Assembly: GCA_903924465.1 (NCBI GenBank)
Contig: CAIYBN010000056.1
Coordinates: 1,291-65,290 of the forward strand
Source: an uncultured Myxococcales bacterium
GTDB lineage: Bacteria > Myxococcota_A > UBA9042
Length of the DNA: 64,000 nt
Reading direction: 5' to 3'
Part shown: in pieces, positions 231 to 58,027 of the stretch
How the letters are laid out: every line of letters starts with the position of its first letter
How positions within the stretch are numbered: position 1 is the stretch's first letter
The notes under the pieces: model-generated
The model's input: only the letters and a program-made list of their open reading frames with translations
The model's database searches: none
Told to the model about the DNA's origin: nothing
Translations under genes and position numbers: made by a program

Positions 231-327
231 CGCGCAAGCGAAGCGAGCGCATGCCCGCGAGGTCGCGCGCAGCGCGAACAAGCGTACCCGCGCTTACACG
301 CACACCTGACGTCGCAGCGGACACCAG

Positions 328-363
328 CCCCCATAAGCCCCCTTGCAAGGGGGCTTATGGGGG
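328..363. other. Perfect 36-bp palindrome (cccccataagcccccttgcaagggggcttatggggg) inside the IS, downstream of istB
   Basis: Read directly from the sequence. A 15-bp stem around a self-complementary ttgcaa loop. Possible terminator or structural element of the IS. Confidence 0.4.
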
Positions 364-8184: not shown

Positions 8185-8952
8185 TTACGGAACTGCGCGG
8201 CCGGCGCGGACGATCGCGGCAAATTCATCTGCCGTCAAGCTCGCACCGCCGACCAACATGCCGTCGATGTCGCTTTGTGCGAACAATCCCGTGGCGTTAC
8301 TGCCTTTGACGCTGCCGCCATATTGGATGCGGCAGTTGGCGGCAAAAGCTGCGGAAAAACGCGTGGCCAGCCAAGCGCGAATGTGCGCGTGGACCTCCTG
8401 CGCCTGTTCCGGCGACGCAGTCAAACCAGTGCCGATCGCCCAAACCGGTTCGTAGGCGATGATCAGATGCTGCAGTTGATCGGCCAGCAGGCCGTCGAGC
8501 GCCACGGTCAGTTGGCGGTCGACCACAGCAAATGTCGTGCCGTTTTGCCGTTCCGCCAATTGCTCACCCACGCACAACACGGGCTTCAGACCCGCCGCCA
8601 GGGCCGCGCGCAGCTTCTTCGCGACGATTTCATCCGTGTCGCCAAAGACGGACCGCCGTTCAGAGTGGCCGACGAGCACGTGCGTGGCGCCTGTGGACAC
8701 GATCATCGCCGCCGAAACCGCGCCGGTAAACGCGCCTTTGGCCTCAAAATGCAGATCCTGCGCGCCCACATTCACGTGACTGCCCGCAACCTTGTCCGCC
8801 ACGGCCGCCAGGAACGGAAACGGCGGAAACAGCAGCACGTCGCCCAGCCGCTGCGAGCCCAGACGATGCCGCACTTCCTGGGCCAAGGCGATGGCCTCGG
8901 GCAAGGTCGTGTGCATCTTCCAATTGCCGCCCGTGACTGGGGTCCGTGCCAT
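8185..8952 (-). CDS. tpiA: Triosephosphate isomerase
   Basis: 255 aa. GNWKMH. AYEPVWAIGTG. GGSV motifs. Confidence 0.95.
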   Translation of the reverse strand: MARTPVTGGNWKMHTTLPEAIALAQEVRHRLGSQRLGDVLLFPPFPFLAAVADKVAGSHVNVGAQDLHFEAKGAFTGAVSAAMIVSTGATHVLVGHSERRSVFGDTDEIVAKKLRAALAAGLKPVLCVGEQLAERQNGTTFAVVDRQLTVALDGLLADQLQHLIIAYEPVWAIGTGLTASPEQAQEVHAHIRAWLATRFSAAFAANCRIQYGGSVKGSNATGLFAQSDIDGMLVGGASLTADEFAAIVRAGRAVP

Positions 8953-8954
8953 GA

Positions 8955-10250: not shown

Positions 10251-10271
10251 GTGGCCTCCGCCGGCCGCGCG

Positions 10272-11315
10272 CTACAGCGCGGTCAGGATGTGATTCGCCA
10301 GCGCGTACAAGCGGTTGGTGTAGCCCCACTCGTTGTCGTACCACGCCACGACTTTGACCAGATTGCCACCCTGCACGTGCGTCATGCTCGGATCGAACAC
10401 GGAACCGGTCGCCTCGCCGATGAGATCCGAGGACACGACCAGATCATCCTCCACACGCAAGGTGCCCGCGGGGTACTTGGCCGCCGCGGCCCGCAGCGTG
10501 TCGTTCACTTCCTGAGTCGTCGTAGCCTTTTCGACCGAGACGACCAGATCGACCAGCGACACATCCGGAACCGGCACGCGCAGCGCAACGCCGTGCAGCT
10601 TGCCCATCAGCGCCGGCACGACCAGACCGATCGCCTTGGCGGCGCCCGTCGAGGTCGGCACGATGTTCTGGCTGGACGTACGACCGCGACGCGGCTCTTT
10701 CTTGTGCGGCAGGTCGAGTACGACCTGATCGCCGGTGAACGCGTGCACCGTCGTCATCACGCCGCCGACGACGCCAAACGCCTCGTGCAACGCTTTGGCC
10801 AGCGGCGCCAAGCAAGTCGTCGTGCAGGAAGCGGCCGAAATGACCGTGTGTTCCGGCTTGAGCGTTTCGGTATTGATGCCAAACACGACCGTCGCATCCG
10901 GTGCTTCTTTGGAATCACCCGGCGCGGAAATCAGCACGCGCTTGGCACCCGCGGTCAGGTGCGCGGCGGCGGCCGAGCGCTTGGTGAACTTGCCGGTCGA
11001 TTCGATCACGAGATCGATGTCGAGCTCTTTCCACGGCAACGTCGCCGGATCCGTTGCGGCGAACAGCTTGACCTTCTGATTGCCGACGGTCAGCACACTG
11101 CCGTCGAGCGAAACGGTGCCTTTGAACTTGCCGTGCGTGCTGTCATAGCGCGTCAGGTAAGCGAGGGCGGACGGATCGGCCAAATCATTGGCAGCGACCA
11201 GTTCAAAGGGGCAATTGGGATCGAGTGCTGCAACACGGGTCAAGCAGCGACCGATGCGACCAAAACCGTTGATAGCGACGCGGGGACGACGAGTGGCGGA
11301 CATTTTGGACTCCAT
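10272..11315 (-). CDS. gap: Glyceraldehyde-3-phosphate dehydrogenase
   Basis: INGFGRIGR. SCTTNCLAP active-site cysteine. 347 aa. First gene of the gap-pgk-tpiA-secG operon on the minus strand. Confidence 0.95.
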   Translation of the reverse strand: MESKMSATRRPRVAINGFGRIGRCLTRVAALDPNCPFELVAANDLADPSALAYLTRYDSTHGKFKGTVSLDGSVLTVGNQKVKLFAATDPATLPWKELDIDLVIESTGKFTKRSAAAAHLTAGAKRVLISAPGDSKEAPDATVVFGINTETLKPEHTVISAASCTTTCLAPLAKALHEAFGVVGGVMTTVHAFTGDQVVLDLPHKKEPRRGRTSSQNIVPTSTGAAKAIGLVVPALMGKLHGVALRVPVPDVSLVDLVVSVEKATTTQEVNDTLRAAAAKYPAGTLRVEDDLVVSSDLIGEATGSVFDPSMTHVQGGNLVKVVAWYDNEWGYTNRLYALANHILTAL

Positions 11316-11370
11316 AACGGGGAGGAAAGCCCCGTGGGGTCCGGGATGATAAGTCGATCGGCCGGCAGGG

Positions 11371-12225
11371 TCAACGCGGTGGCGCGCGACCGCCCGTCAA
11401 CGCATCCAGCAGCGCTGCCACCTGCGCCGACGTGTGTGCGACGTGCCGCAACGTGGTCGCTTGGGCTGCGAGTGCCACGGCCGCCAACGCAAGTCCGCCG
11501 GCACTCGGCAGCGCGCCCATTCCCACACCCAACAGTGCGCCCACGCCCGCCAGCACGGCGGCCACCTCCAGCACGCGCGTCCAGGTGTCCAACCCTTTGA
11601 GACGCCGCCGGTGCTCCAAAACCAGCGCGACAACGTGCTCGGTCTCCAAGGGTGGCGAATGCGCCGCCAGGGTAGAACGTGGGGCAGTCGGCGGCAGCGG
11701 GCGCGCAGGCTGCATGTGGGCCGGCACTGGCGGCCCGTGGCGCAGGATCTTGCCCGGCGGTGGAAACGCGACGCCGGATCCCGGCGGAATGGTCTTTTGC
11801 GGCGCCGCGGGATGCGGCACCCCGGGATGGGCGTCGTCCGGTCCGGCTTCAAACGTTTGAATGACGTCTGAACTTTCCTTCTTCCCACTCACCGGCAGCC
11901 GAATCGGATGGTCGGGCGCGTGCACCGGCGGGAGCAGCCCCTTCGGCGCGATCGTCCCGTGCTGGCCGGCCAGTGTAGAGTTGGTATTCGGGCCAAAAAC
12001 CGGTACGAGCGGCTGCCGTTCGACCGACATCGGCTCGGGATTCTGTCGCGCCAGGTCCGCCACCATGGGCAGCGCGCGCGACGGCGGGTGATCGGGCAAT
12101 TCCGGCTCGACGTCCGACGGCACGCGCGCCTGTGGCGGCAGCGTTCCGTGCTGCAGGAGCGTCACATCCGCTTCGCGCGGCGGCAGCGGCAAAATGGCCG
12201 GCGGGTCCTCACGGTGGCTGGGCAT
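11371..12225 (-). CDS. Proline-rich hypothetical protein with a C-terminal hydrophobic segment
   Basis: 284 aa ORF with PxxP-rich low complexity and a C-terminal membrane-like stretch (VLAGVGALLGVGMGAL). No recognizable domain; may be over-called. Confidence 0.35.
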   Translation of the reverse strand: MPSHREDPPAILPLPPREADVTLLQHGTLPPQARVPSDVEPELPDHPPSRALPMVADLARQNPEPMSVERQPLVPVFGPNTNSTLAGQHGTIAPKGLLPPVHAPDHPIRLPVSGKKESSDVIQTFEAGPDDAHPGVPHPAAPQKTIPPGSGVAFPPPGKILRHGPPVPAHMQPARPLPPTAPRSTLAAHSPPLETEHVVALVLEHRRRLKGLDTWTRVLEVAAVLAGVGALLGVGMGALPSAGGLALAAVALAAQATTLRHVAHTSAQVAALLDALTGGRAPPR

Positions 12226-12258
12226 CTGGGCCTCGTCTGGCGCGTTCGCTGAGGTCGG

Positions 12259-13671
12259 TCACGGCTTGGGGCGTTGCGGATTCGCGACCTTGCATTGACC
12301 GAGCAAGGTGTCCAGCGCCTGCACCAACGGTTGGCGCGCAGGTTCCGGCAAGTTAGCGCGCAAAACGACGCCGCGCAACGCATCTTCCAGGTCGATCGGT
12401 CGGCAATGGTTGGGCTCGCGCTCCAGATCGATGTTGTGACCCAGCGCCATCAGCGGTCCCAACGTCGCCGCGGACGGCAGCTTGCCCTTGGCCGCCGCAA
12501 ACAGCGTCGCGGGACTCAGCGGCCGCGCGTTGGCCAAATCCTCGCGTTCAGCGATGCCTTGCGGCTTGAGCGACTGGGCATAGCCGTACACGATCGCTTC
12601 CTCGGGAGTCAGTTGCGCAAGGCCAATCAGCGCGGCATCTGCATCACCGCGAACACCGTGCCGCGACGCGATCGCCTGCCACGCCACATCGGCGGTTTGA
12701 TCCGCGGTCTGGCGCGCAACCAGCACGGCGGCGTTGAGCGCAACAATCGCCAGATCGCCCGTGGCATCGCGCTGCATCGCGTCGATCAGGGACAACGCAT
12801 CCAGCCGCGCACCGCCGGCCAATTCGCCAATGAGCGGATCCTTGAGCCAGCCCTTGAACACGGGCGCAGTGACGACAAACGGCGTCGACGCGGGCGGCGG
12901 TGCGGCCGTACTCGCCTTTGACGGAGCACGCTGAGCGGGCGTCCATTCCGGAGGCGGAGGCGGCAACTGAATCGGCGCCGACAGGTTCGCCAGCTCATGC
13001 CCGGCACAGGCCGTCGCCAAACCGCGTGCCAACGCGTCGACGCGCTCGGCTGCCGCCAGACGCACACTCTCGGCACCGCCGTCGCGCGCACTTCTGGCCA
13101 ACTGTACCGCATGACTACAGGCGGTTCGCGCATCCGGGTCCGCCGCCGCCGCGACGAGCGCATGGGCAGCCCGAATCGCCTGGATCGTCGGCGCCTGCTG
13201 TTCGGCGTATTCCAGCAGTTGTAGCGCGCCCGCGTCACTCACTTTGGCCGACCGCGTCTGCAGCCGTTTCGTGTCAGCGCCCGCCGCCAGCGCGCGCAGC
13301 CAGCCCAGCACGAACGCCTGGCGGGCATTCAACTGGTCGACGTCGATGTCGCGGGCCCGCAGCGCACCGGACGGGCCGATCGCCAACCGCGCGAGCAAGC
13401 CCTGCGTGACAAATGCATCCACGGCGTGACGGGCCACGCCGGCCGCGCCCACTGCATCCACGACCGCCCACGCGCGATCGGTTGGAAAGCGCACATCGAG
13501 CACCTTTTCCCGATCCAGGAGGGTCAAGTAGCCTTGCGATCGCACGGCGAGCACCAGTGGATGGTCTGCGTATGCGGCGTCCACGTGGATGGATTCCAGC
13601 AGCAAGGGCTGTGGTTGTGCCAGGACCGTGGACGCAATGAGCAGGGTGAGGGCGACGAGAAATCGGGGCAT
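12259..13671 (-). CDS. Secreted hypothetical protein (signal peptide)
   Basis: 470 aa. N-terminal signal peptide MPRFLVALTLLIASTVLAQP. Ala-rich, no recognizable domain. Confidence 0.55.
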   Translation of the reverse strand: MPRFLVALTLLIASTVLAQPQPLLLESIHVDAAYADHPLVLAVRSQGYLTLLDREKVLDVRFPTDRAWAVVDAVGAAGVARHAVDAFVTQGLLARLAIGPSGALRARDIDVDQLNARQAFVLGWLRALAAGADTKRLQTRSAKVSDAGALQLLEYAEQQAPTIQAIRAAHALVAAAADPDARTACSHAVQLARSARDGGAESVRLAAAERVDALARGLATACAGHELANLSAPIQLPPPPPEWTPAQRAPSKASTAAPPPASTPFVVTAPVFKGWLKDPLIGELAGGARLDALSLIDAMQRDATGDLAIVALNAAVLVARQTADQTADVAWQAIASRHGVRGDADAALIGLAQLTPEEAIVYGYAQSLKPQGIAEREDLANARPLSPATLFAAAKGKLPSAATLGPLMALGHNIDLEREPNHCRPIDLEDALRGVVLRANLPEPARQPLVQALDTLLGQCKVANPQRPKP

Positions 13672-13858
13672 GACGGACTCCGCAGACTGGGCACACGGTA
13701 AACGGACGGGCCGCTGGAATCAATCGTGGCGCCGTGCCGGCGGTCTGTGACCAGAGATTCGATGGTGAATTCCGCAAGCGTATTGCGTTTGCGTGCTCTT
13801 GCGGCGACGATCCGCCGGCCCTTGTCCGGGCACGTGGAGACGGTGAGTGCGCAGCAGC

Positions 13859-14815
13859 ATGTTTCAGCGACGGTTTGTGATTGTCTCCGGCAAGGGCGGC
13901 GTGGGGCGATCCACGCTGGCGGCCTCGCTGGGTTTCGCCGCGGCGCGCTACGGCATGCGAACCTGCGTGGTGCAACTGAATACCCGCGACGAGCTGGGGC
14001 GCATCTTCGCCGTCGATGCCAGCGGTTACGAGCCGGTGCCCCTGGTCCCCGGGCTGCCGCTTTTCGGCTGCAACCTGCGCCCGGTGGATGCGCTGCGCGA
14101 ATATGGCCAAATGAAGCTGCACTTTCGCACGCTGCACAAATTGGTCTTTGAAAATGACGTGATGCAACGCCTGCTGCGGATGATTCCGGGGATGAATGAG
14201 CTCGTGCTGTTGGGCAAGGCTTGGCACATGGAGGCGCAGGAACGCGGCAGTGATGGCCAGCCAGCGTGGGATCTGATCATCGTCGATGCACCGGCAACGG
14301 GGCACGGCGTGTCGCTCTTGCGCCTGCCGCAGACGATTCTCGCCGCCGTGCCGGTGGGGCCAATGGCCGACGACGCCCGCCAGATGCAGGCGCTGCTGGA
14401 GGACCCGGCCCGCACGGCGCTGCATGTCGTGACCCTGCCGCAGGAACTGCCGGCGACGGAAGCGCTGGAGCTGTGCGATGAAGCGCGGCTCAAACTGGGC
14501 ATGCCGACTGGCAATTTGTTCGTGAACATGATCCTGCCGCCGCTTGTGGACGATCGCCAATTGCGGGCGATCCAGCGCGCGGAGCCGGAGACGCCGCTGA
14601 TGGTGGACACGGTGACGGCGGTCGCGGCGCACGTGCGCTGGCACGACGCCCAGCAGCTGCAAGTGCGCAGGCTGCAAAAGGCCTCGGCCTTGCCGGTGGT
14701 GGAGCTGCCGCACTTGTTTTGCACCATCGGCCGGGCGCAAATCGAGGTGCTGGCCGATGCGCTTGTCACGGGGATGGAAGCCGCCGAAAGTCGTCAGCGC
14801 GGAGCGGCGCGATGA
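13859..14815 (+). CDS. ArsA/GET3-family (ParA-like) P-loop ATPase
   Basis: Deviant Walker A FVIVSGKGGVGRST. ArsA-like length and motifs. Its stop overlaps the next start by 4 bp (ATGA). Confidence 0.8.
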   Translation: MFQRRFVIVSGKGGVGRSTLAASLGFAAARYGMRTCVVQLNTRDELGRIFAVDASGYEPVPLVPGLPLFGCNLRPVDALREYGQMKLHFRTLHKLVFENDVMQRLLRMIPGMNELVLLGKAWHMEAQERGSDGQPAWDLIIVDAPATGHGVSLLRLPQTILAAVPVGPMADDARQMQALLEDPARTALHVVTLPQELPATEALELCDEARLKLGMPTGNLFVNMILPPLVDDRQLRAIQRAEPETPLMVDTVTAVAAHVRWHDAQQLQVRRLQKASALPVVELPHLFCTIGRAQIEVLADALVTGMEAAESRQRGAAR

Positions 14816-16302
14816 GGCGCTGCCTGCTGTGGCTGGGCTTGCTGGCCATGAATCATGCCGCGCTGGCGGTTGAGCCGCGTGTTGCCGGCAAAGGACACGC
14901 CATGCAGATGCACAAACCGGTGGATGCAACTGCCGCAGAGGCCGCGGCGCGGGCGCGCGAGACGACCTACCAGCAGAGCGGCGCGCAGGTCCGGCTGCTG
15001 GCGGTGCTGCCGTACGGCGCGGGGGTGGTCGAGCACTGGCAGCTGGCAAACGGGCTGCAGATCGTGCTGGCGGTGGATGCCCTGGTGCCCGTGGTCGCAG
15101 TGCAATCGTGGCTCTGCGTCGGTTCGGCCGATGAAATCGCCGGCAAGACCGGATTGGCGCACCTTTTTGAGCACATGATGTTCAAGTCGACGGAAGCACG
15201 GCCGGCAGGAACGCTGGACCGCGTGCTGGAACAGATGGGCGGCTCTGCCAATGCGGCAACATCGCTGGATTACACGTTCTTCCAGGAAACCGTGCCCAGC
15301 GTGCACGTCCCGACCGTGTTGGACATGGAAGCGGATCGGCTGGTCAACCTGGATCTGACGGCGGCGGCGTTTCGCAGTGAATTGAGCGTGGTGCGCAATG
15401 AGCGGCGGGAAGTGGTCGACAACGATCCGGACGGGCAGATCGACGAAACGATGAGCGAACTGGCTTGGGGCGCGCACCCGTACGGCCATCCGGTGATTGG
15501 CACGGAGAAGGACCTGGCGGGGCTGAGCGTCGCGGACGCGCGCCAATTCTACCAAACGCATTATGCTGCTGGACGCACACTGTTGGTGCTGGTTGGCGGA
15601 TTTGACCCGAATGCGCTGCTCCTGGAAGTGATTCAACATTACGGGAAGTTGCCGCAGGGACCGACGCCACAACGACCAACTGCCGCGATCCCGACGGGCG
15701 CGGCGCAACGCTCGCTGGCGATTGATGCAGGTGCGGAACGACTGGCCATGGCCTGGCGCCTGCCGCCGGGCGATCACGCTGACATGGCCGCGCTGGATGT
15801 GTTGACGGAAATGCTGGCCAATGGCGATTCCACGCGGCTGGCGCGGGCGCTGCTGTACGACAAGCCGATTGCGTCCCACGCGTCGGCGGACTTGAACGAC
15901 GCGCGGCTGGGGAGCTTGCTGCAAATCCACGTGACTTTGCTGCCAGGGCAGGTGGCCAAAGAGGCGCTGGCGCGGGTTGACGCGACGATCAAGGCGCTCA
16001 ACGGCTCGCAGCCGATGACGGAAAGCGAACTGCTCGCAGCAAAAAATCGTTTGAAAATGGCGCATTTCAGCGCGTTGACCAGTGTCGATGGCCGTGCTGA
16101 ACAGCTGGGGCACTTTCTCGCGGGCTACGGTTCGCTGCAGCCGCTGCTGCGGTTCAGTGCGGACGTCGAGGCGGTGACGGTGGCCGATGTCCAGCGCGTC
16201 GCGCAAAAATACCTGGTGGCCGATCGCCGCGTCGTGGTGTTGGGTGAGATGGCGCCGCCCAAAGTCGCTGGCAAACGGCGGACGGGCGGGTCCAAGGGAT
16301 GA
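14812..16302 (+). CDS. M16-family (pitrilysin/insulinase) zinc peptidase, catalytic subunit, secreted
   Basis: Signal peptide MRRCLLWLGLLAMNHAALA. Inverted zinc-binding motif HxxEH (AHLFEHMMFK). About 500 aa. Confidence 0.85.
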   Translation: MRRCLLWLGLLAMNHAALAVEPRVAGKGHAMQMHKPVDATAAEAAARARETTYQQSGAQVRLLAVLPYGAGVVEHWQLANGLQIVLAVDALVPVVAVQSWLCVGSADEIAGKTGLAHLFEHMMFKSTEARPAGTLDRVLEQMGGSANAATSLDYTFFQETVPSVHVPTVLDMEADRLVNLDLTAAAFRSELSVVRNERREVVDNDPDGQIDETMSELAWGAHPYGHPVIGTEKDLAGLSVADARQFYQTHYAAGRTLLVLVGGFDPNALLLEVIQHYGKLPQGPTPQRPTAAIPTGAAQRSLAIDAGAERLAMAWRLPPGDHADMAALDVLTEMLANGDSTRLARALLYDKPIASHASADLNDARLGSLLQIHVTLLPGQVAKEALARVDATIKALNGSQPMTESELLAAKNRLKMAHFSALTSVDGRAEQLGHFLAGYGSLQPLLRFSADVEAVTVADVQRVAQKYLVADRRVVVLGEMAPPKVAGKRRTGGSKG

Positions 16303-47644: not shown

Positions 47645-50236
47645 TCAGGGACACGAGGTCTGCGTCACGCTGAAGTTACTGACGTCAAATTCAGTGTACG
47701 CTCCACCAGTTCCCGCGGAAAATCCGATGAAGCCGCCGGCGAAGGCACTTGGCATCGTTCCGGAGAACAGGAGATAGCCATCGATAGAGCCCTTGACGTT
47801 TGCGCCGTTGATATCAACGACGTAGTGATGCCATAAGCCATCGCCGACATCGCCGGGAACATTGTTCCATGCGTCAGCCCAGCCATTGGCTGCATACTTG
47901 CCGGTGTCACCATTCAGTGTCGCCGCGAACTCATAGCTGAGCCCATGATCGCCGGCATCGCTGTCATGCGTGTCCAGCTTCACGTGGACACCGTTGACTG
48001 GGTAACTGCCGCAGATGGTGTTGTTGGAGCCATAGCCCATGCAGGCTCCGGATGCCGTGTTGGCGATATAGCTCTCAAGTGCGGTGAGATTGGGTACGTC
48101 GATGATGTTGAGCGCCATTCCCTCCGGAGAGGCAAAAAACGCTGCGTCGTATTGGATGGTCGTCTTTGCCGCCGCAATCCGCGCGGTTGTGTAATACACC
48201 TGCCCCTTCTTCGATGCGGCTGCGGGCACGAGCCGAACTCCGGGGCCTGCCGTCGAGGAGTAGTCCGCGCTGTTATACAGCTTCCACCCGGCCTTCACGG
48301 TAGCGAGAGAATTCGTTGTGTTCAAGCAAGCCGCGCAGCCTTCATCGGTCAAGCCATTGCAGTTGTCGTCGATGCTGTTACCGCAGACCTCCGCGTGACC
48401 GGGATTCACCGCCGCGCTGGCGTCATTGCAATCACCGGACACCATCGCAGTGTAGCTCGCCAGCGGGCCGCAGGCAGCTTTGCCCGTACCGGCGCCATAG
48501 CCATCCGCGTCGGCATCGGCATAGTAGGTTGCCGTGCCCAAACCCTCGTCGGTCTGGCCGTTGCAGTTGTCATCCAAGCCATTGCAGATCTCGGTGGCGC
48601 CCGGATGGACAGTTGCCCGCGTATCATCGCAGTCGGTATGGTCGCTGACATCGCCGACAGGCGCGCTGCAGGCCTGCACCAACTTGCTAGTGTCGCCGTA
48701 GCCGTCGCCATCTGCATCTGCGTAGAAGTTCAGCTTCACGCCTTCGTCGACCGTGCCGTTGCAGTTGTCGTCCACGCCGTTGCAGATCTCGGTCGCGCCG
48801 GGATGAACGGTGGGACTCGCATCGTTGCAATCACCGCTGACGGTGACGTAGCCCATCGGCTGGCTGCATGCCGATTTGCTGACAGCTGCGTTGCCATAGC
48901 CGTCGAAGTCCGAATCCTGATAGTACGTCACGGTCACCAAGCCCTCGTCGATCTGACCATTGCAGTCATCGTCCACGCCGTTGCACACTTCCGTCCTGGC
49001 CGGGTTGATCGTGGGATCGTTGTCGTTGCAATCGCCGCCCTTGGATGTTGAGTAGATGGCGCTGGCTGCGCACAGACAGCTGGGGGTGCCGCCGCCGTAC
49101 CCATCGCTGTCGGCGTCCTTGTAGAACAACGTGCAGTTCGTCGCCCCCGCCTCATCGGTCTTGCCGTTGCAGTTGTCGTCCACCCCGTTGCACACCTCCG
49201 CCGCACCCGGATGAATCGCCGCATTGCCATCATCGCAGTCCCCGCCGCACGTCGCGCTCGGGCCGTAGCCATCGCCATCGGCGTCGATGGTCTTGGAACT
49301 GCACACGCCAGCCACGCACGCATCCGCGGTGCAGACATTGCCATCGCTACACGCATTGGCGTTGTTGGTCACGTTCGCACAGCCGGTCGCGGGCGCGCAG
49401 CTGTCATCGGTGCAGGCGTTGCCGTCGTTGCAATTGCTGGCGCCACCGCCAAAGCAGGTGCCGGCCACGCATTGGTCGCCGCTGGTGCACAGGCTACCGT
49501 CCTCGCAGGTGGCGCCGGTGGCGAGGTTGACGGCGACGCACTGGCTGGTGCTGGGATCGCAGCTGTTGGCCTTGCAGGCGAGAACGGGACAGACGATGCC
49601 TGCGCAGGGATTGGTGTTGGCGTCGGGCAGTGCCACGTCATCGGCGGCATCGGCATCAACCGCGGAGGCGTCGTCGGCCAGCACCACGTCGGCGGTATCC
49701 ATCAGGTCCGCACTATCGGCATCCGCGACATCCACCAGCGTGGCATCGGTGCCCGCGGTATCGCTGCCATCGGCCAGATCGGCCAGGTCCGGCGCATCGG
49801 CAGCGCTGGCATCGGTCGCATCGGCAAGCGCATCGACCGTGTCGGCGATATCCGGCCCGACGTCCGCAAGGACTACATCCGCGGCATCCACGGCGTCGAC
49901 AATTTCGGCCGCCTCGTCGACCACGGCAGTGTCGGTGCCGGCATCCACCGTTTGCGCATCGCCATCGACGGCATCGACTTCCGGCGGCGCGTCGGCCAGT
50001 TGCACATCCAGCGCATCCGCGGCCGTCACGTCCTCGCCGGCGTCCACCACGTCCGCGAGGGCGTCACCAACATCCGCCGCAGCATCGCCATCCGCGGCAT
50101 CACCGAGCGCATCCGCCGCAACGAGTCCATCCGCCGCGGCTTGTTCAGCCGGCGTGGCGTATTCAAAGGCATCCGGCGCCGGCAGGGCAAAGCATCCGCT
50201 CAGGCAGGCAAGGCCGATGGCCAGCAAGCGCTTCAT
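47645..50236 (-). CDS. Large lipoprotein with MopE-like Cys-rich 'putative metal-binding' repeats and a C-terminal L-type-lectin/LamG-like domain
   Basis: Lipobox LACLSGC. Asp/Ala-rich linker. Several repeats of DADGDGYG...C..DC(D/N)D....(I/V)(H/N)P...E.CNG(V/L)DD(N/D)CNG..DEG. C-terminal roughly 230-aa beta-sandwich-like domain. Confidence 0.75.
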   Translation of the reverse strand: MKRLLAIGLACLSGCFALPAPDAFEYATPAEQAAADGLVAADALGDAADGDAAADVGDALADVVDAGEDVTAADALDVQLADAPPEVDAVDGDAQTVDAGTDTAVVDEAAEIVDAVDAADVVLADVGPDIADTVDALADATDASAADAPDLADLADGSDTAGTDATLVDVADADSADLMDTADVVLADDASAVDADAADDVALPDANTNPCAGIVCPVLACKANSCDPSTSQCVAVNLATGATCEDGSLCTSGDQCVAGTCFGGGASNCNDGNACTDDSCAPATGCANVTNNANACSDGNVCTADACVAGVCSSKTIDADGDGYGPSATCGGDCDDGNAAIHPGAAEVCNGVDDNCNGKTDEAGATNCTLFYKDADSDGYGGGTPSCLCAASAIYSTSKGGDCNDNDPTINPARTEVCNGVDDDCNGQIDEGLVTVTYYQDSDFDGYGNAAVSKSACSQPMGYVTVSGDCNDASPTVHPGATEICNGVDDNCNGTVDEGVKLNFYADADGDGYGDTSKLVQACSAPVGDVSDHTDCDDTRATVHPGATEICNGLDDNCNGQTDEGLGTATYYADADADGYGAGTGKAACGPLASYTAMVSGDCNDASAAVNPGHAEVCGNSIDDNCNGLTDEGCAACLNTTNSLATVKAGWKLYNSADYSSTAGPGVRLVPAAASKKGQVYYTTARIAAAKTTIQYDAAFFASPEGMALNIIDVPNLTALESYIANTASGACMGYGSNNTICGSYPVNGVHVKLDTHDSDAGDHGLSYEFAATLNGDTGKYAANGWADAWNNVPGDVGDGLWHHYVVDINGANVKGSIDGYLLFSGTMPSAFAGGFIGFSAGTGGAYTEFDVSNFSVTQTSCP

Positions 50237-51111
50237 CAAAACCGCCCCGTCAGCAGCAGACCCTGCGGTGTGGGCAGCAGCGCGACCTTGTCGGGATGGC
50301 GCAGCAAGAGCCACGTGCCCCCGCCCGCGCACGCCAGCCCGCCCACGCCCAGGCCGATGCCCACGCCCAGCCGGGTGTTGAGCGAGGTCACCGTCGCCGA
50401 GGCCGTCTGGTAATTCGTGCCGACAATCTTGCCATCAGGCCCCAACGTGCCGCTGTCGCGCTTCCAGGCCGCGGCATCCGCCAGCGTGGACAGGCTCACG
50501 CCCAAGCCAGCGATGAACAGCGCGCCGCCACCCGCCACCAATGCCCATGGCACCAGTTCGTTCTCGGCTAGACGGCGCGGCGCCTGAAGGACCACAGGCG
50601 GCGGCGCAACCGGCTCACGCTGCGGCAACGTCTCGACCGTTTTCACCACCACCACCGCGGGCGGCGGTAGCGGCTGCGGCGGCTCCACGGTTGACCGCGG
50701 CGGTTGGGCCACCGGCGGCGGCGCAACGGGCAATGGCGGCGGCGCGGCGCTCTTCTCCACCGCGTCGATTTCATCCAGCGCTTTCTGAGATTTCAAGAAG
50801 TACGGGTCCGTGCCCGGCAGCAGCCCCATGAGGCTCTCGAACGCCAGCCGCGCGGCCTTGAATTTGCCGGCCTTCTGCTCGGATCGCCCAACGCCGAACA
50901 GGTATTCCGGCTTGGTAGGATCGATCCGGTACGCGCGTCGGTAGAGATCGGCGGACGCCACGTACGCCTGATGCCGGTAGTAGTCGATGGCCTGCTTGGC
51001 GACCATCGACGCTTCCACGGCCGGCGCGGGCGGTGCGGCCAACACCGGCAGCGCCAGCAACAGCACAGCCGCCACGAGCACACGGCGCAGAATCTGCCGA
51101 GCCATCGCCAT
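50236..51111 (-). CDS. TPR-repeat protein with a Pro-rich linker and C-terminal hydrophobic region
   Basis: Signal/anchor MAMARQILRRVLVAAVLLLALPVLAA. TPR-like segment (YYRHQAYVASADLYRRAYRIDP). PPPV repeats. Confidence 0.5.
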   Translation of the reverse strand: MAMARQILRRVLVAAVLLLALPVLAAPPAPAVEASMVAKQAIDYYRHQAYVASADLYRRAYRIDPTKPEYLFGVGRSEQKAGKFKAARLAFESLMGLLPGTDPYFLKSQKALDEIDAVEKSAAPPPLPVAPPPVAQPPRSTVEPPQPLPPPAVVVVKTVETLPQREPVAPPPVVLQAPRRLAENELVPWALVAGGGALFIAGLGVSLSTLADAAAWKRDSGTLGPDGKIVGTNYQTASATVTSLNTRLGVGIGLGVGGLACAGGGTWLLLRHPDKVALLPTPQGLLLTGRF

Positions 51112-53200: not shown

Positions 53201-53986
53201 CTAGCGCAACGCACCCGCCGTAAACGCGCTCTTGGCCGGCGCGGTCGACGGTCCTTCGGCAACAAATCGCACCGATTTTGGATCATCGCCGGCACCGCGC
53301 AATTGGAACGCCTCGGGTTGGCCGGCGCCGTTGAACGCTTCCCAGTCGACTTCTCCCAGCTTGGCTCCCTTGCCATCGCTGATGGCGGTGGCAATCAAGT
53401 AGCCGGAGCGTTTGGAGATGGACACCTTGGCGGGACGCGCCGTCACGCCCAATTCATAGCGCGGCGCCAGACGCACAACGGCCACTTCGTCAAACTCACC
53501 CTCCACCGTGGGCGTGTACTGCGATTGCCATTCCAGCGCACAGAACATGATCCACGGCACACCGAGAATGGGTTGGGGGCGGAACACCGCTTCGTGCGGC
53601 AGCAATTTGGCCTTCTCACCGCCGACGCGCAGCCACGCCTTGGCGCCATCCATGACAACGCCCGTGCCCAGCAACTCCGCCGGACCTGCGACAACGCGCA
53701 CTTGCAGCTGAGCGTGGCCGACAAAGCTCCGGGCGACCGCAATCTTCAGCCCTGCCATCGGGTGCCCGGCCGGCACATCCGCTTTGAAGACGCGCTGCCA
53801 GGGCTTTTGTGCCGAACGCTGGAGCGCCAGCTCGGCAATCGCAGGCGCACCCTTGCGGCGAATATCCAGCCATTCGGTGGGCGGCGCCGCGAGCGCGAAG
53901 GACGCCAGCAAACACTGCGTGGCCAGCAGGCAGCGTGTCAGGAAGAGGTTGCGGTGAAGGCGCCGGAAGACCATTGGACGACCCAA
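53201..53986 (-). CDS. Secreted hypothetical protein
   Basis: Signal peptide present; no recognizable domain. Confidence 0.45.
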   Translation of the reverse strand: MGRPMVFRRLHRNLFLTRCLLATQCLLASFALAAPPTEWLDIRRKGAPAIAELALQRSAQKPWQRVFKADVPAGHPMAGLKIAVARSFVGHAQLQVRVVAGPAELLGTGVVMDGAKAWLRVGGEKAKLLPHEAVFRPQPILGVPWIMFCALEWQSQYTPTVEGEFDEVAVVRLAPRYELGVTARPAKVSISKRSGYLIATAISDGKGAKLGEVDWEAFNGAGQPEAFQLRGAGDDPKSVRFVAEGPSTAPAKSAFTAGALR

Positions 53987-54233
53987 GCACGGCGGCGATG
54001 CCGCGAGAGGTCAGATTGCCCCTCGCCACGGGCTCGGTCAAGTTCAATGGCGCACAAGCGGAATTCTCCACGCCCACATCGACGGTTGCAGCTGGCGAGA
54101 ACGACGTCACCCGCGCGGCAACCCGCTGTGCCGGAAGAAGTTACCGTCATTCGCGTGCATCGCGTGCCAAGATCCGGCACACTGACCTTTCGCGTTCCTT
54201 CCGGCCCGGAAGCCGCGTCCACGGAGTCGATTC

Positions 54234-55502
54234 ATGGCCAACCTCGGCTACATCCAGATGGTCCGGCACTGCAACCAGAACTGCGGGTTCTGCTCCAATC
54301 CGGAGACGCCGTTCTTCCACAATCTGGAGCAGATTCACGAAATCGTGAAGGATTTCGTCAGTCGCGACTACTTTGGCGTCATCATGACCGGCGGCGAGCC
54401 CACGCTGTCGCCGATCCTGCCGGAAGCGATTGCCCACGCCCGCGAGAACGGCCTGCACGTGCGGATGATTACCAATGGCCAGAAGCTCGCCGATTGGGAT
54501 TACTGCAAATCCTTGGCCGATGCCGGTTTGCAGCATGTGCACGTATCGATTCACAGTCACAAACACAAGCTCGAAGACTTTCTAACCGGTACGCCGGGCT
54601 CGCTGGACTGGGCGGAAAAGGCGCTGACCAATCTGGGCAAGACCAACATCACGGTCAACATCAACACGGTCATCAACCGCTACAATTGCGACCATCTGCA
54701 CGAAAACATCGAATGGTTCATCCAGAATTTCCCGTTCATCCGGCATTTTGTCTGGAACAACCTGGACCCGTCGATCGGTCGCGCCACCAGCAACCAGTAC
54801 TTCACGGCGCGGATGCAGGACATCGAGGTGAGCCTGTCCAAGGCGATGCGCATGCTGGCGGAAACCGGCCGGTCGTTTCGCGTCGAGCGCGTGCCGCTGT
54901 GCTACATGACTGAGTTTGCGCATTGCTCGACTGAAACGCGTAAAATCGTCAAATCGGAAGAGCGCATCGTGCATTTCCTCGACAACAAGGGCACCGTGCG
55001 CCAGACCGAATGGGGCCATTTGTACGCCGATGTGTGCAACGTCTGCAGCCTGCGCTCCATCTGTGGCGGCCTGTTCGACCGCGGCGACGCTTACGATCCG
55101 AAGGAGCTGTCGCCGATTTTCAGCGATCCCAAACCGATCATCGCGCGCATCGTCCAGGATTTGCAGTCCGATCCGGCTTGGCGCATGGCGAAATTCAAGA
55201 ACCTGGCGGCAGTTCCGGCGGCGCACCAGGGTAAATCCGGGAGCCAGAAGAGCATGGCGGGCGGCGAAGTGTCGCGACCCGGTAAAGTGCAGGCGCCGAC
55301 CGGCGAGCGGCTGGTGCAAATGGCGATGGACCCGAAGCGCAAGACGGATCACACGGCGCATGACTGGACGCCGGAAACGGCGGGCTGGCATCCGTCGGAC
55401 GATGAAGAGGACGTGGACGAAGGCCTCGTCGTGCCGCCAGAGCCCGTTTCGACAGGGCGGGTTGCGGCGTCGCGCCTTGATGTTCGATCCGGACAAGAGT
55501 AG
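54234..55502 (+). CDS. Radical SAM/SPASM-type enzyme (paralogous to the C-terminal half of the 39658-41949 fusion)
   Basis: CNQNCGFC (CxxxCxxC). GGEPT. PLCYM. C-terminal Cys cluster CNVCSLRSICGG. Roughly 110-aa disordered acidic/Pro-rich tail. GGAG ribosome-binding site. Confidence 0.85.
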   Translation: MANLGYIQMVRHCNQNCGFCSNPETPFFHNLEQIHEIVKDFVSRDYFGVIMTGGEPTLSPILPEAIAHARENGLHVRMITNGQKLADWDYCKSLADAGLQHVHVSIHSHKHKLEDFLTGTPGSLDWAEKALTNLGKTNITVNINTVINRYNCDHLHENIEWFIQNFPFIRHFVWNNLDPSIGRATSNQYFTARMQDIEVSLSKAMRMLAETGRSFRVERVPLCYMTEFAHCSTETRKIVKSEERIVHFLDNKGTVRQTEWGHLYADVCNVCSLRSICGGLFDRGDAYDPKELSPIFSDPKPIIARIVQDLQSDPAWRMAKFKNLAAVPAAHQGKSGSQKSMAGGEVSRPGKVQAPTGERLVQMAMDPKRKTDHTAHDWTPETAGWHPSDDEEDVDEGLVVPPEPVSTGRVAASRLDVRSGQE

Positions 55503-55595
55503 AAGCAAGAGGTCACGCCAGTCCGGTCGCCCCCCGCCGGATGCGCGTTCGCCCTCCCACATCTGGGGCAATTTGCATCACAGGAGTACTTGAGC

Positions 55596-56036
55596 ATGGG
55601 CCAGCCGCACATTGAGAAACTCGACCCGAAAACCAGTACGATGACGCTGTCGCTGGACATCGGCCTGTACCCCGCGGACGTGCTGTACGCCGCCGCCTAC
55701 GTGTTCCTCGACCGCGCGTACGTCTTGCTGGATCGTGCCGGTCCGCGCTTTGAAGTGCACCTGCGCGGCAAAGGCGAGCTCGACGAAGCGCAGCTGACCG
55801 CGATGTCCGGCGAGTTTGAGAACGAGCTGCTCGCTCAGGCGCTGCGCCGCAAGGTCGTCAAGGCCAACCAGAAGATCATCGAAGACATCACCAGTCAGGC
55901 CATCGCGGGCGCGGCGGGCGGCACGCTGCCCACGGATTTCCTCGCTGCAGGCGACGACGGCATGGACTTTCTCGACGACCCGCTGGGCATCGCGGTGCCG
56001 TGGGAAGAGAAATTCAAGAAGAAGAAAGACGCCTGA
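55596..56036 (+). CDS. Small protein A of the rSAM cassette (poly-Lys C-terminus)
   Basis: 146 aa from the ATG at 55596 (AGGAG ribosome-binding site 8 nt upstream; the track ORF starts 6 nt earlier at TTG). Ends ...EEKFKKKKDA. Paralogous to the next small ORF. Confidence 0.65.
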   Translation: MGQPHIEKLDPKTSTMTLSLDIGLYPADVLYAAAYVFLDRAYVLLDRAGPRFEVHLRGKGELDEAQLTAMSGEFENELLAQALRRKVVKANQKIIEDITSQAIAGAAGGTLPTDFLAAGDDGMDFLDDPLGIAVPWEEKFKKKKDA

Positions 56037-56097
56037 GAGACGTCCAACAAACGTCAGCGTATCCCAACTGTTCTGATCTTTTTGCGGGGTTCTCTTC

Positions 56098-56337
56098 ATG
56101 AGCCATGTCACACACCAATCCGTCAAGCTGCACCGCACGCTGTACATGCAGCAGGCGGTGAAGGAAGCGGCGACGACATTCGCGGATTTCGCCTCGTTCG
56201 CCATCAAGCGCGACGGCGATTACTACGCGGTCGACATCCGGGACATCGACCCGGACGTGGACGGCGACGTGGTCGCGGAATTCTGCAACTTTGCGCTGGC
56301 CAACACGGCGAGCCGCAAGAAATCCAAGAAAGCCTGA
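56098..56337 (+). CDS. Small protein B of the rSAM cassette (paralog of A; poly-Lys C-terminus; N-terminal SHVTHQS..HRT)
   Basis: 79 aa. Shares a LY..A..F.D.A....RDG...V..R...D...V..EF.N..LA core with the 146-aa protein. Ends ...ASRKKSKKA. Lies immediately upstream of the RRE-containing rSAM gene. Confidence 0.55.
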   Translation: MSHVTHQSVKLHRTLYMQQAVKEAATTFADFASFAIKRDGDYYAVDIRDIDPDVDGDVVAEFCNFALANTASRKKSKKA

Positions 56338-56365
56338 ACGGCCGCAGTGAGAGGAGCGAACACGG

Positions 56366-57928
56366 ATGACAGCGACCACGCTTCAGACCAAGAGCCAGAA
56401 GCACGATCTGCTGCCCAAAGGCAAACAGGTTGATCTGACGACGATTTCCAGCCCGGGTCGCTGGAAACCTGAGTTCGCCGTGCCGTTCAACCAACGGCAG
56501 CTTGGCAGCAAGATTCTGATCACCAACGACATGGGCGATTGGGATCTGCTGAGCCGCGAGGAATTCCGCGACTTCATCGAAGGCAAGCCGCAGCCGGGCG
56601 AGCCGCTGTATGAACGACTGAAGACCCACAATTTCATCGCCAAGGAAATCGACATCACGGCGCAGGCCGAGCGGTGGAAGCGCAAGAAGCAATACCTGTT
56701 TTACGGTCCGACGCTGCACGCGTTTGTGCTCACGCACCGCTGCAATCACGGCTGCCAGTATTGCCACAGCTCGATCGTCGGCATGGAGCGGACCGACACG
56801 GACATGTCGATCGAGACCGCCGAGCGTGCCGTCGATCTGGTGTTCCAGACCACGAGTCCAGGCATCACGATTGAGTTCCAGGGCGGCGAGCCGACCGCGA
56901 ACTGGGAAGTGTTGCAGCACGTCGTCGAATACGCGCGGCAGAAGAACGCGTTGGCCAACAAGGCGCTGTCATTCGCATTGGTCACGAACTTGTCGCTGAT
57001 GGACGACGAGAAGATGGAGTACCTGCTGGACCGCAAGGTGCAGATTTGCACCAGCTTGGACGGTCCGGAGGATTTGCACAACAAGATCAGGATCTTCAAG
57101 GACGGCAACAGCCACGCGAACTTGATGCACTGGATCAAGCGCATCAACGACCGCTACGGCGAGCTGGGCTTGGATACAAACCTCTACCGCGTGGAAGCGC
57201 TGCCGACGATCACCAAGCCGGGCTTGCACCGGTGGAAGGAAATCGTCGACACGTACGTGGAAGCGGGCTGCAAAGCGGTGTTCCTGCGCAAGCTCGACCC
57301 GTTCGGCTTCGCAGAGCGCACGGCCAAGACGCTGGGCTATTCGATGGACGACTTCCTGGAGTTCTATGCGCATGCCGTGGACTACATCATCGAGCTGAAC
57401 CGCAACGGCACGCAGGTGATGGAGCGGCATGCATCGATCATGCTGAACAAGATTCTGGCCGATCAGGAGCCCAACTACCTGGACCTGCGCACGCCCGGTG
57501 GCGCATGCATCGGCCAGCTGGGCTACGCGCCCGACGGTGGCGTGTATTCGAGTGACGAAGGCCGGTTTGTCGCCGCAATGGGCGATGACATGTTCCGGAT
57601 TGGCACGGTCGAGGACACGTACCACCAGTTGATGACGAACGCGCAGACCCGCGCGATCGTCATGGCGGGCTTGAACGACGCGCAGCCGGATTGCGTCAGC
57701 TGTGTCTACAAGCCGTGGTGCGGCCAGCAGGTCGAGTACAACTACAAGACGCAAGGGTCGTTGCACGGCCACATGCGCGACTCGGTGTGGTGCAAGAAGC
57801 ACAAGTCGATTTTCGACTATTTGATGTACAAGCTGGAGAACGCCGACGAACGCGACATGGAGATGTTCCGCCGCTGGACGACGAACCGTCAGCTGGAACA
57901 CTTCCTTCAGGAGCGCGCGCCGCTGTGA
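56366..57928 (+). CDS. Radical SAM/SPASM-domain peptide-modifying enzyme with an N-terminal RRE-like extension
   Basis: GAGGAG ribosome-binding site. Roughly 110-aa N-terminal extension (ILITNDMGDWDLLSREEFRDFIEG, PqqD/RRE-like). CNHGCQYC. GGEPT. C-terminal SPASM Cys cluster (CVSCVYKPWCG). Confidence 0.9.
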   Translation: MTATTLQTKSQKHDLLPKGKQVDLTTISSPGRWKPEFAVPFNQRQLGSKILITNDMGDWDLLSREEFRDFIEGKPQPGEPLYERLKTHNFIAKEIDITAQAERWKRKKQYLFYGPTLHAFVLTHRCNHGCQYCHSSIVGMERTDTDMSIETAERAVDLVFQTTSPGITIEFQGGEPTANWEVLQHVVEYARQKNALANKALSFALVTNLSLMDDEKMEYLLDRKVQICTSLDGPEDLHNKIRIFKDGNSHANLMHWIKRINDRYGELGLDTNLYRVEALPTITKPGLHRWKEIVDTYVEAGCKAVFLRKLDPFGFAERTAKTLGYSMDDFLEFYAHAVDYIIELNRNGTQVMERHASIMLNKILADQEPNYLDLRTPGGACIGQLGYAPDGGVYSSDEGRFVAAMGDDMFRIGTVEDTYHQLMTNAQTRAIVMAGLNDAQPDCVSCVYKPWCGQQVEYNYKTQGSLHGHMRDSVWCKKHKSIFDYLMYKLENADERDMEMFRRWTTNRQLEHFLQERAPL

Positions 57929-58027
57929 TTCTGGCTGCAGCGCGCTGTTTTCGCGCGCGCAGGTAAGGAGACCGCCGCGCGGCCTCCTCGGATTCTGCAA
58001 GCAGAATCCTCACCTCCAGCGGGGGCG

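What the first reader, a model, noticed from the sequence alone, without database searches (positions are those of the whole stretch)
55596..56337. Two tandem paralogous small proteins with shared core and C-terminal lysine runs
Aligning the 146-aa and 79-aa proteins by eye gives:
- a shared LY/A/F-D-A/RDG/V-R/D/EF-N-LA pattern;
- lysine-rich termini in both (KFKKKKDA and RKKSKKA);
- protein B starting SHVTHQSVKLHRT, i.e. three H-x-S/T triplets;
- a single Cys in B near the tail, and none in A.

Duplicated candidate substrates (or duplicated accessory chaperones) between two maturases are a hallmark of modification cassettes. Lys-rich tails could be modification sites or membrane/nucleic-acid interaction tails.
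Basis: seen in the sequence. Interest (0 to 1): 0.6.

Follow-up and report, generated by a model that had tools for sequence, protein, structure and literature searches.

The report
Paired HxsD accessory proteins, not substrates
The two small tandem proteins are distant paralogs from the HxsD family, the helper proteins of "His-Xaa-Ser" radical-SAM peptide-maturation systems, so they are most likely helpers for the two flanking enzymes rather than the peptides those enzymes modify.

Summary
ORF A (55596-56036, 146 aa) and ORF B (56098-56337, 79 aa) exist as described, between two radical-SAM genes.

**Paralogy.** BLASTP finds no A/B similarity. Profile methods do:
- hhalign E = 2.7e-4.
- B-profile versus A: 12.3 bits, above all 2400 shuffled decoys.
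- Both AlphaFold models share a β-α-β-β-α core.

**Identity.** These are known families. A is HxsD (TIGR03976, 54.8 bits, cutoff 50). B is "HxsD-like" (NF038315, 70.2 bits, cutoff 41). The downstream enzyme is HxsB. The upstream enzyme is HxsC-like but scores below cutoff.

**Conservation.** A-B-HxsB is a conserved unit: 62/62 related genome loci have A next to B, and 57/62 have HxsB next. In many relatives a separate precursor with an (SHG)n repeat core lies nearby (NCBIfam HxsA4). That makes A and B accessory proteins, not substrates.

- B's N-terminal HxS/T triplets are lineage-specific (3 of 119 relatives).
- The basic tails are conserved.
- A carries a conserved, disordered tail motif, DPLGIAxxWE.

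**This window's cassette.** It is reduced: no HxsA in 64 kb, and two radical-SAM genes found in close relatives are missing. All four genes remain under strong purifying selection.

**Verdict.** New members of known, experimentally unstudied families. Moderate interest.

The parts
54234..55502 (+). HxsC-like radical SAM enzyme (422 aa) with a CxxxCxxC motif near the N-terminus, a C-terminal CxxCx5C auxiliary-cluster-like motif, and a low-complexity acidic C-terminal extension
   Evidence: Pfam Radical_SAM E = 1e-20. The best NCBIfam hit is HxsC TIGR03977 at 108 bits, below the 268 cutoff; HxsC4 NF038332 scores 87 bits against a cutoff of 500. It lies directly upstream of A in 26 Myxococcota-type loci. 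dN/dS is 0.04-0.06.
55596..56036 (+). Protein A: long HxsD-family protein (146 aa)
   Evidence: TIGR03976 HxsD 54.8 bits, cutoff 50, over aa 23-106. 861 homologs, with precomputed Pfam PF27806 HxsD. AF2 pLDDT 81 with elements E5-10, E15-21, H27-37, E41-48, E51-58, H64-106. dN/dS 0.035-0.046.
55965..56027 (+). Conserved motif in A's disordered C-terminal tail: DFLDDPLGIAVPWEEKFKKKK (aa 124-144)
   Evidence: F125, L126, D128, P129, P135, W136 and E137 are invariant in the 45-sequence alignment. AF2 pLDDT is 44-53 here. The core 'DPLGIAxxWE' recurs in most long HxsD proteins of (SHG)n-associated loci from 34-74% GC organisms. The tail lies outside the 90-position TIGR03976 model and is absent from a canonical 96-aa HxsD.
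56098..56337 (+). Protein B: HxsD-like protein (79 aa), in the position that HxsD holds in the canonical operon (immediately upstream of hxsB)
   Evidence: NF038315 HxsD_rel 70.2 bits, cutoff 41. 357 close homologs and 545 clusters at 50% identity. AF2 pLDDT 93, β-α-β-β-α. Conserved motifs LHRxLY, FADFA.F and DGDVVAEFCNFAL. dN/dS 0.06-0.09. Canonical hxsD (96 aa) overlaps the hxsB start in Aeromonas plasmid NC_009349.
56366..57928 (+). HxsB radical SAM/SPASM maturase (520 aa)
   Evidence: TIGR03978 520.9 bits, cutoff 370. About 35% identical to annotated HxsB on plasmids. Immediately downstream of B in 57/62 related loci.
57921..57942 (+). Terminator-like hairpin at the end of the four-gene cassette
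   Evidence: Consensus scan. The match is weak on its own: 6 sites found against 4.4 expected.

Best explanation
A and B are two anciently diverged paralogs of HxsD, the small accessory protein of His-Xaa-Ser (Hxs) radical-SAM maturation systems. They lie in a four-gene operon: HxsC-like rSAM, A, B, HxsB.

**Proposed mechanism.** Each step below is inference, by analogy with E. coli HxsD. That protein binds HxsC and needs its LY and (L)LNDYxLRE motifs for substrate processing.
- A and B are folded α/β adaptor subunits. They dock on the two radical-SAM enzymes, either separately or as an A-B heterodimer.
- A keeps the LY and EFxNE motifs. B sits where canonical HxsD sits, directly before HxsB.
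- Together they help position a separate His-Xaa-Ser-repeat precursor for modification.
- The conserved disordered tail of A (DPLGIAxxWE followed by a basic run) acts as a short docking peptide for a partner.

**Substrate.** It is not A or B. In relatives it is an HxsA4-type peptide: a leader 'LPxLRKxPxDFL...' followed by an (SHG)n core ending in W. In this window that gene is absent from all 64 kb and must be elsewhere in the genome.
For: **Family membership.**
- A is above the curated cutoff for HxsD, B for HxsD-like, and the downstream enzyme for HxsB.
- Public sources name homologs HxsD and HxsD-like.

**Paralogy.** Shown by hhalign E = 2.7e-4, HMM scores above all 2400 decoys, and the shared fold.

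**Conserved module.**
- A is immediately upstream of B in 62/62 genome loci, and HxsB is downstream in 57/62.
- The same A-then-B order appears in 18 of 25 metagenomic loci that were found independently through (HGS)n DNA.
- It also appears in a 37% GC organism.

**Separate substrate in relatives.**
- 105-aa (SHG)16 precursors flank the Binatia-type clusters. They score 105.5 bits on HxsA4 NF038313, cutoff 55.
- An (SHG)7 protein sits inside the L068 operon.
- Many (HGS)n precursors are co-located with A and HxsB homologs.

**Experimental precedent.** HxsD binds HxsC and is needed for HxsA processing. Y23A and D61A/R65A mutants are defective (PMC13128918).

**Real, selected genes.** dN/dS is 0.035-0.09 at dS 0.5-0.9.
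Against: - No HxsA or (SHG)n gene is present in the window or in any Myxococcota-type locus within ±10 kb. The substrate of this particular cassette is therefore unidentified.
- The upstream rSAM does not reach the HxsC or HxsC4 cutoffs.
- Physical binding of A or B to either enzyme, and A-B heterodimerisation, were not testable here.
- The fold matches nothing in the PDB significantly, so structure gives no independent functional clue.
- The window lacks two rSAM genes that close relatives carry, so its chemistry may differ from theirs.
Confidence: 0.75

Rival explanations
1. A and/or B are the ribosomal substrates (precursors) of the two flanking radical-SAM maturases. B's N-terminal HxS/T triplets or the Lys-rich tails would be the modification sites.
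For: - They lie between two maturases.
- No other candidate substrate is in the window.
- B's N-terminus MSHVTHQS resembles the start of the HxsA4 core, MSHASHGS.
Against: - Both are confidently folded and conserved along their whole length.
- The HxS/T pair is present in only 3/119 B relatives and is already lost in an 87%-identical homolog.
- Both belong to the accessory HxsD family.
- Relatives with the same pair have separate (SHG)n precursors.
Confidence: 0.06
2. The conserved, disordered C-terminal tail of A (DPLGIAxxWEEK[F/Y]KKK) is itself a cis-encoded core peptide, for example for a Trp-Lys or similar cross-link, or it is a leader mimic. The HxsD domain would then act as a long folded leader, as in NHLP/Nif11-type precursors.
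For: - The tail is disordered yet has invariant residues, including W136, E137 and K139.
- It is present wherever the long HxsD occurs.
- Myxococcota-type clusters have no other visible substrate.
- rSAM/SPASM enzymes that cross-link Trp and Lys exist; this rests on my own knowledge of streptide, darobactin and WGK-type RiPPs.
Against: - The tail is equally conserved in loci that do encode a separate (SHG)n substrate.
- A is a single-copy protein with very low dN/dS, unlike typical variable core peptides.
- Conserved disordered motifs are more often docking peptides.
- No direct evidence supports this reading.
Confidence: 0.08
3. The window's cassette is a decaying remnant. It has lost the precursor gene and two of the four radical-SAM genes found in close relatives, and it no longer functions.
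For: - Close relatives at 89-97% protein identity carry two extra rSAM(-like) genes upstream. The window has none of these in 64 kb.
- No HxsA is present.
- The upstream neighbourhood is rearranged (mutL, then a 261-aa gene).
Against: - All four ORFs are intact, with dN/dS of 0.035-0.09 against three relatives.
- The same reduced arrangement recurs in independent assemblies from different samples.
- The missing genes may simply lie elsewhere in the genome.
Confidence: 0.08

Closest known systems
HxsD of the HXS antiphage system (E. coli/Klebsiella; Li et al., Nat Commun 2026, PMC13128918; TIGR03976/PF27806)
   Same: - A passes the curated HxsD model, and B hits it weakly.
- Both keep an LY motif and an EFxN motif. 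These correspond to the LYW and LLNDYxLRE motifs that were shown to matter experimentally.
- Both are encoded next to HxsB.
   Different: - There are two paralogs here instead of one.
- A has a 40-aa disordered tail with the DPLGIAxxWE motif. A canonical 96-aa HxsD lacks it.
- The gene order is HxsC-like, A, B, HxsB rather than D-B-C-A.
- No HxsA is encoded in cis.
- The HxsC-like enzyme is below cutoff.
- The host is Myxococcota, whereas 99.7% of HXS systems were reported in Pseudomonadota.
- The neighbourhood is chromosomal housekeeping genes.
NCBIfam variant Hxs components: HxsD-like NF038315, HxsA4 NF038313, HxsC4 NF038332 (curated models with no publication found)
   Same: - B scores 70.2 bits against a cutoff of 41 on NF038315.
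- Related loci with the same A-B-HxsB core encode HxsA4-class (SHG)n precursors.
   Different: - The window has no HxsA4 gene.
- None of its rSAMs reaches the HxsC4 cutoff: 87 bits against 500.
- Nor do those of the Binatia-type locus, where the best score is 124 bits.
PqqD/RRE accessory proteins of radical-SAM RiPP pathways (functional analogy only)
   Same: A small accessory protein, encoded beside an rSAM/SPASM maturase, that binds the enzyme and is needed for peptide modification. This is inferred from HxsD data.
   Different: - The fold is β-α-β-β-α rather than a winged helix.
- There is no sequence hit to any solved structure.
- Foldseek against the PDB gives only generic ferredoxin-like, KH or Pcc1-like matches at E > 0.004.

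Membership tests
HxsD (TIGR03976 / PF27806) | Score above the curated NCBIfam cutoff (50 bits) | tested here: met
   A scores 54.8 bits, E = 9e-15, over aa 23-106. B scores only 19.6 bits (E = 8.7e-4), so B alone does not meet it.
HxsD (TIGR03976 / PF27806) | Conserved LY(W) and LLNDYxLRE-type motifs | tested here: inconclusive
   A has L24-Y25 (Y25 invariant) and EFENELLAQALR. B has L15-Y16 (Y16 invariant) and EFCNFAL. The LY and EFxN cores are present but the rest of the motifs diverges. A canonical Aeromonas HxsD has EFKNALIDHELR.
HxsD (TIGR03976 / PF27806) | Encoded with HxsB and HxsC radical-SAM maturases | tested here: inconclusive
   HxsB is met: 520.9 bits against 370. The second rSAM hits HxsC best but at 108 bits against a cutoff of 268.
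HxsD (TIGR03976 / PF27806) | System includes a His-Xaa-Ser repeat protein (HxsA) | tested here: not met
   No ORF with clustered HxS motifs and no homolog of the HxsA4 leader occurs in the 64-kb window. The feature is met in Binatia-type and other relatives. The rest of the genome could not be searched.
HxsD (TIGR03976 / PF27806) | Physically binds HxsC and is required for HxsA processing | not testable with these tools
   Shown only for E. coli HxsD (PMC13128918).
HxsD-like (NF038315) | Score above the curated cutoff (41 bits) over the full 62-position model | tested here: met
   B scores 70.2 bits, E = 1.3e-19, aa 9-70 against model positions 1-61 of 62.
   AF2 pLDDT is 93 for B, and the A core (aa 11-100) has block means of 90-97. 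Conservation runs through the whole domain. dN/dS is 0.035-0.09.
   Two N-terminal HxS/T triplets occur in 3/119 relatives and none in 104/119.
RRE / PqqD-like recognition element | Winged-helix fold, or sequence or structure similarity to PqqD | tested here: not met
   There is no Pfam or NCBIfam hit to such a family. Foldseek against the PDB does not return PqqD or RRE structures among its top 50 matches.

The most novel reading that the evidence does not exclude
In the Myxococcota lineage no HxS-repeat precursor is encoded near the cassette. There, the A-B pair may be more than a passive helper. A's universally conserved, disordered DPLGIAxxWE-basic tail could be a tethered pseudo-substrate or an actual cis-substrate of the radical-SAM enzymes. 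Alternatively, A and B could form a heterodimeric, non-RRE recognition module of a kind not yet described for RiPP-like maturases.
Probability: 0.1. Interest if true: 0.65.

Novelty: new member of a known kind. Interest (0 to 1): 0.35.

Why it matters
The canonical HXS system was shown only in 2026 to be an antiphage barrier, and the role of HxsD is still unclear. This window belongs to a large sister class of Hxs-like clusters that has not been studied experimentally. The class spans Myxococcota, Binatia and low-GC taxa, and has three hallmarks:
- a tandem pair of HxsD paralogs;
- a conserved tail motif on the longer paralog;
- multiple HxsC-like rSAMs, with (SHG)n-repeat precursors in many members.

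Recognising A and B as accessory proteins prevents their mis-annotation as RiPP precursors. It also points experiments at the right substrate, HxsA4-type (SHG)n peptides. The conserved tail and the A-B pairing are concrete handles for finding out what HxsD proteins do.

Tried and rejected
**Searches on A and B that returned nothing.**
- BLASTP of A against B gave no alignment; profile methods were needed.
- The local Pfam copy has no HxsD model, so A and B gave no hits.
- PADLOC 2023 has no model for A or B. The rSAMs hit only generic viperin models.
- Sequence search of the PDB with both family profiles found nothing meaningful.
- Foldseek against the PDB for both models gave only generic α/β sandwiches at E > 0.004.

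**Searches for a substrate.**
- Scans for HxS-rich or His-rich ORFs in the window and in Myxococcota-type loci found none. This held for strict and relaxed criteria and for tblastn with the HxsA4 leader.
- I tested whether the gene just downstream of HxsB is a conserved fifth component. The window, L006 and L066 versions are unrelated.
- The conserved flanking genes in Myxococcota loci (uppS, lgt and lspA; aroE, ribF and aroA) are housekeeping synteny, not system parts.

**Other.**
- An Rfam scan of the window found no RNA family.
- Similarity between the HxsA4 leader 'PLDFLS' and A's tail 'DFLDDPLG' was considered and set aside. The shared stretch is too short and the charge order differs.

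Full report
**1. The observation**

The ORF list and the raw sequence confirm two same-strand ORFs.
- A is 55596-56036, 146 aa. An AGGAG lies about 9 nt upstream of its ATG.
- B is 56098-56337, 79 aa.
- A has no Cys and ends EEKFKKKKDA.
- B has one Cys and ends SRKKSKKA. It begins MSHVTHQSVKLHRT, which contains H-V-T, H-Q-S and H-R-T.

The two ORFs lie between radical-SAM genes at 54234-55502 and 56366-57928. The gaps between the four genes are 93, 61 and 28 nt. A terminator-like hairpin follows the last gene.

**2. Are A and B paralogs?**

Profile methods do detect the relationship.
- hhalign of a 45-sequence A alignment against a 40-sequence B alignment gives E = 2.7e-4 over 71 columns.
- An HMM of the B family scores window A at 12.3 bits (E = 6e-6 for one comparison). 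It scores 120 A-family members at a median of 13.2 bits. The best of 2400 shuffled decoys reaches 8.5 bits. The reciprocal search behaves the same way.
- AlphaFold2 gives B a confident β-α-β-β-α fold (pLDDT 93). It gives A the same core plus an extra N-terminal strand, a long helix (64-106) and a disordered tail (107-146; block-mean pLDDT 74 falling to 44).

The paralogy is real but ancient.

**3. What they are**

NCBIfam places each gene as follows.

| Gene | Best model | Score (bits) | Cutoff (bits) |
|---|---|---|---|
| A | HxsD, TIGR03976 | 54.8 | 50 |
| B | HxsD-like, NF038315 | 70.2 | 41 |
| Downstream enzyme | HxsB, TIGR03978 | 520.9 | 370 |
| Upstream enzyme | HxsC, TIGR03977 | 108 | 268 |

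The upstream enzyme is closest to HxsC but well below the cutoff.

Homolog searches find 861 relatives of A and 357 of B. Some are already named "His-Xaa-Ser system protein HxsD" or "HxsD-like protein" by NCBI or JGI. A full-library profile search with B finds 545 clusters at 50% identity, mostly proteins of 66-90 aa.

The only experimental work is Li et al. 2026 (PMC13128918).
- In E. coli, the operon HxsD-HxsB-HxsC-HxsA is an antiphage system.
- HxsD binds HxsC in pull-downs.
- All three proteins are needed to process the HxS-repeat effector HxsA.
- Mutations in HxsD's LYW and LLNDYxLRE motifs impair processing and abolish defence.

A and B both keep an invariant LY and an EFxN core.

A canonical operon on an Aeromonas plasmid has a 96-aa hxsD that overlaps the start of hxsB. 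B therefore occupies the canonical HxsD position and has about its size. A is the extra, longer paralog, yet it scores better on the HxsD model.

**4. Context in relatives**

A pattern scan of species-representative genomes with the B alignment returned 62 loci. All are MAGs, mostly Myxococcota, Binatia or "delta" lineages.
- A lies immediately upstream of B in 62/62 loci.
- HxsB lies immediately downstream in 57/62 loci.

Two main architectures appear.

*Myxococcota type (26 loci).* The order is rSAM-like (317 aa), rSAM (about 650 aa), HxsC-like, A, B, HxsB. The cluster is embedded in conserved housekeeping synteny: uppS, lgt and lspA on one side; aroE, ribF and aroA on the other.

*Binatia type (18 loci).* These have four HxsC-like rSAMs, then A, B and HxsB, followed by an aKG-HExxH peptide β-hydroxylase.

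The window matches the Myxococcota type but lacks the two upstream rSAM genes anywhere in its 64 kb. The same reduced layout recurs in independent assemblies.

**5. The substrate in relatives**

Scanning all loci for clustered HxS motifs revealed 105-aa ORFs about 8-10 kb from B in the Binatia-type loci. Some loci have one on each side. Their sequence is MSDQKKNGLPELRKKPLDFLSPAEARQAVKP...AQHMSHA(SHG)~16SW.
- These score 105.5 bits on NCBIfam HxsA4, NF038313, cutoff 55.
- A 37% GC organism has the same module: long HxsD, HxsD-like, HxsB, and five further rSAMs. An (SHG)7-ending protein sits inside the operon.
- About 60 of these encode precursors with a related leader (LPxLRKxPxDFL...) and a core AQH[CM]S(HGS)nW.
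- Many are co-located with A and HxsB homologs.
- Of 25 loci with any A or B hit (23 from this scan plus L068 and L070), 23 have A, 20 have B and 18 have both, with A directly followed by B.

The A-B pair is therefore a hallmark of a widespread Hxs-like class whose substrate is a separate (SHG)n peptide. That is the main reason to read A and B as accessory proteins.

**6.

- *B's HxS/T triplets.* They are not conserved. Only 3/119 relatives have two such triplets before the LHR motif. The third triplet lies in LHRxLY, where x is usually Ala.
- *B's Cys.* It is conserved in the close family (113 of the 120 relatives examined) but is replaced by G, A or S in distant members.
- *Basic tails.* They are conserved in both close families but absent from low-GC B-like proteins.

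The more striking feature is A's tail. It is disordered in the model, yet F125, L126, D128, P129, P135, W136 and E137 are invariant. The core DPLGIAxxWE, usually followed by EKY/F and lysines, recurs in most long HxsD proteins across phyla. I read it as a docking motif; this is inference.

**7. Status of this cassette**

- No HxS-repeat ORF and no HxsA4-leader homolog exists in the window.
- All four genes are intact and under strong purifying selection against three relatives: dN/dS 0.035-0.09 at dS 0.5-0.9.
- The neighbours are MutL, thymidine phosphorylase, a 5'-nucleotidase and a MopE-repeat protein, so this is not a defence island.
- The cassette is 5-9 points lower in GC than its flanks.

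**8. Mechanism and rivals**

*Best explanation (confidence about 0.75).* A and B are adaptor subunits for the two rSAM enzymes. They act on an unlinked HxsA4-type (SHG)n precursor.

What is shown:
- family membership;
- paralogy;
- the conserved A-B-HxsB module;
- separate precursors in relatives;
- purifying selection.

What is inferred:
- who binds whom;
- the role of the tail;
- the existence of an unlinked precursor in this genome.

*Rivals.*
- A or B as substrates (about 0.06).
- A's tail as a cis-substrate or leader mimic (about 0.08).
- A decaying remnant (about 0.08).

Whether the class is defensive, like HXS, or physiological is open. The stable housekeeping synteny in Myxococcota argues for vertical inheritance rather than a mobile defence island.

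**9. Novelty**

Both proteins fall in curated families, and NCBI already annotates such pairs. The finding is therefore a new member of a known kind. No paper on the paired-HxsD, (SHG)n class was found in the searched library. The reduced, HxsA-less cassette here is a minor variant. Interest is moderate.

Noticed in passing
window 53201-54233 versus L004:3359-6385, L005, L009, L010: Close relatives (89-97% protein identity in the cassette) carry two extra radical-SAM(-like) genes upstream of the HxsC-like gene: a 317-aa rSAM-like gene and an rSAM of about 650 aa. The window has neither anywhere in 64 kb. In their place it has mutL and a 261-aa signal-peptide protein of unknown function.
   Followed up: partly
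L024:333-641(-), L043:18296-18622(+) and 16-342(-), L054/L066:16595-16912(-), L062:10551-10877(+): HxsA4-class precursors (a leader of about 60 aa followed by (SHG)n and a final W) flank Binatia-type clusters, sometimes on both sides. The repeat number ranges from 2-3 (70-aa proteins in short-read assemblies) to 16-17 in the loci examined (several from long MFD contigs). This is either real copy-number variation or assembly collapse.
   Followed up: partly
L066:11822-13144(+): In Binatia-type clusters the gene directly after HxsB is an aKG-HExxH-type peptide β-hydroxylase (TIGR04267, 87 bits, cutoff 40). This suggests further modification of the (SHG)n peptide. The window has no counterpart.
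   Followed up: no
window 54000-58000 versus flanks: The four-gene cassette has 58.5-61% GC while both flanks have 65-69%. This could reflect horizontal origin or the amino-acid composition of rSAM enzymes.
   Followed up: no
window 47645-50332(-): An 895-aa secreted protein with an acidic D/A-rich N-terminal region and five MopE-type 'putative metal-binding' repeats (Pfam PF11617, E = 2e-57). Its C-terminal domain is unassigned. In L070 a 1571-aa protein with weak MopE hits sits directly upstream of a B-like gene. This is probably coincidence.
   Followed up: no
L006, L008, L015, L030, L041: These public MAG records are titled 'Enterobacteriaceae' or 'Klebsiella pneumoniae'. They have 57-69% GC and 53-82% identity to the window's B (24-82% for the HxsC-like gene), and three of them (L006, L030, L041) share lgt/lspA synteny with the Myxococcota loci. 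The taxonomic labels look wrong.
   Followed up: partly
L068:8324-8671(+) and 8773-16201: In a 37% GC organism a 23S-rRNA-IVP-family gene is inserted between the HxsD-like gene and HxsB. Five more radical-SAM genes follow the (SHG)n gene, giving six rSAMs in one cluster.
   Followed up: no
window 55130-55502 (aa ~300-422 of the HxsC-like rSAM): The HxsC-like enzyme carries a low-complexity, partly acidic C-terminal extension of about 120 aa (...DWTPETAGWHPSDDEEDVDEGL...). It lies beyond the TIGR03977-matched region, which ends at about aa 229. Its conservation and role were not examined.
   Followed up: no
L070:8001-11654: A minimal variant exists in which a B-like protein (71 aa) is the only HxsD-type gene. 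It overlaps HxsB and is followed by two small rSAMs. There is no long HxsD and no HxS-repeat ORF within ±8 kb.
   Followed up: no
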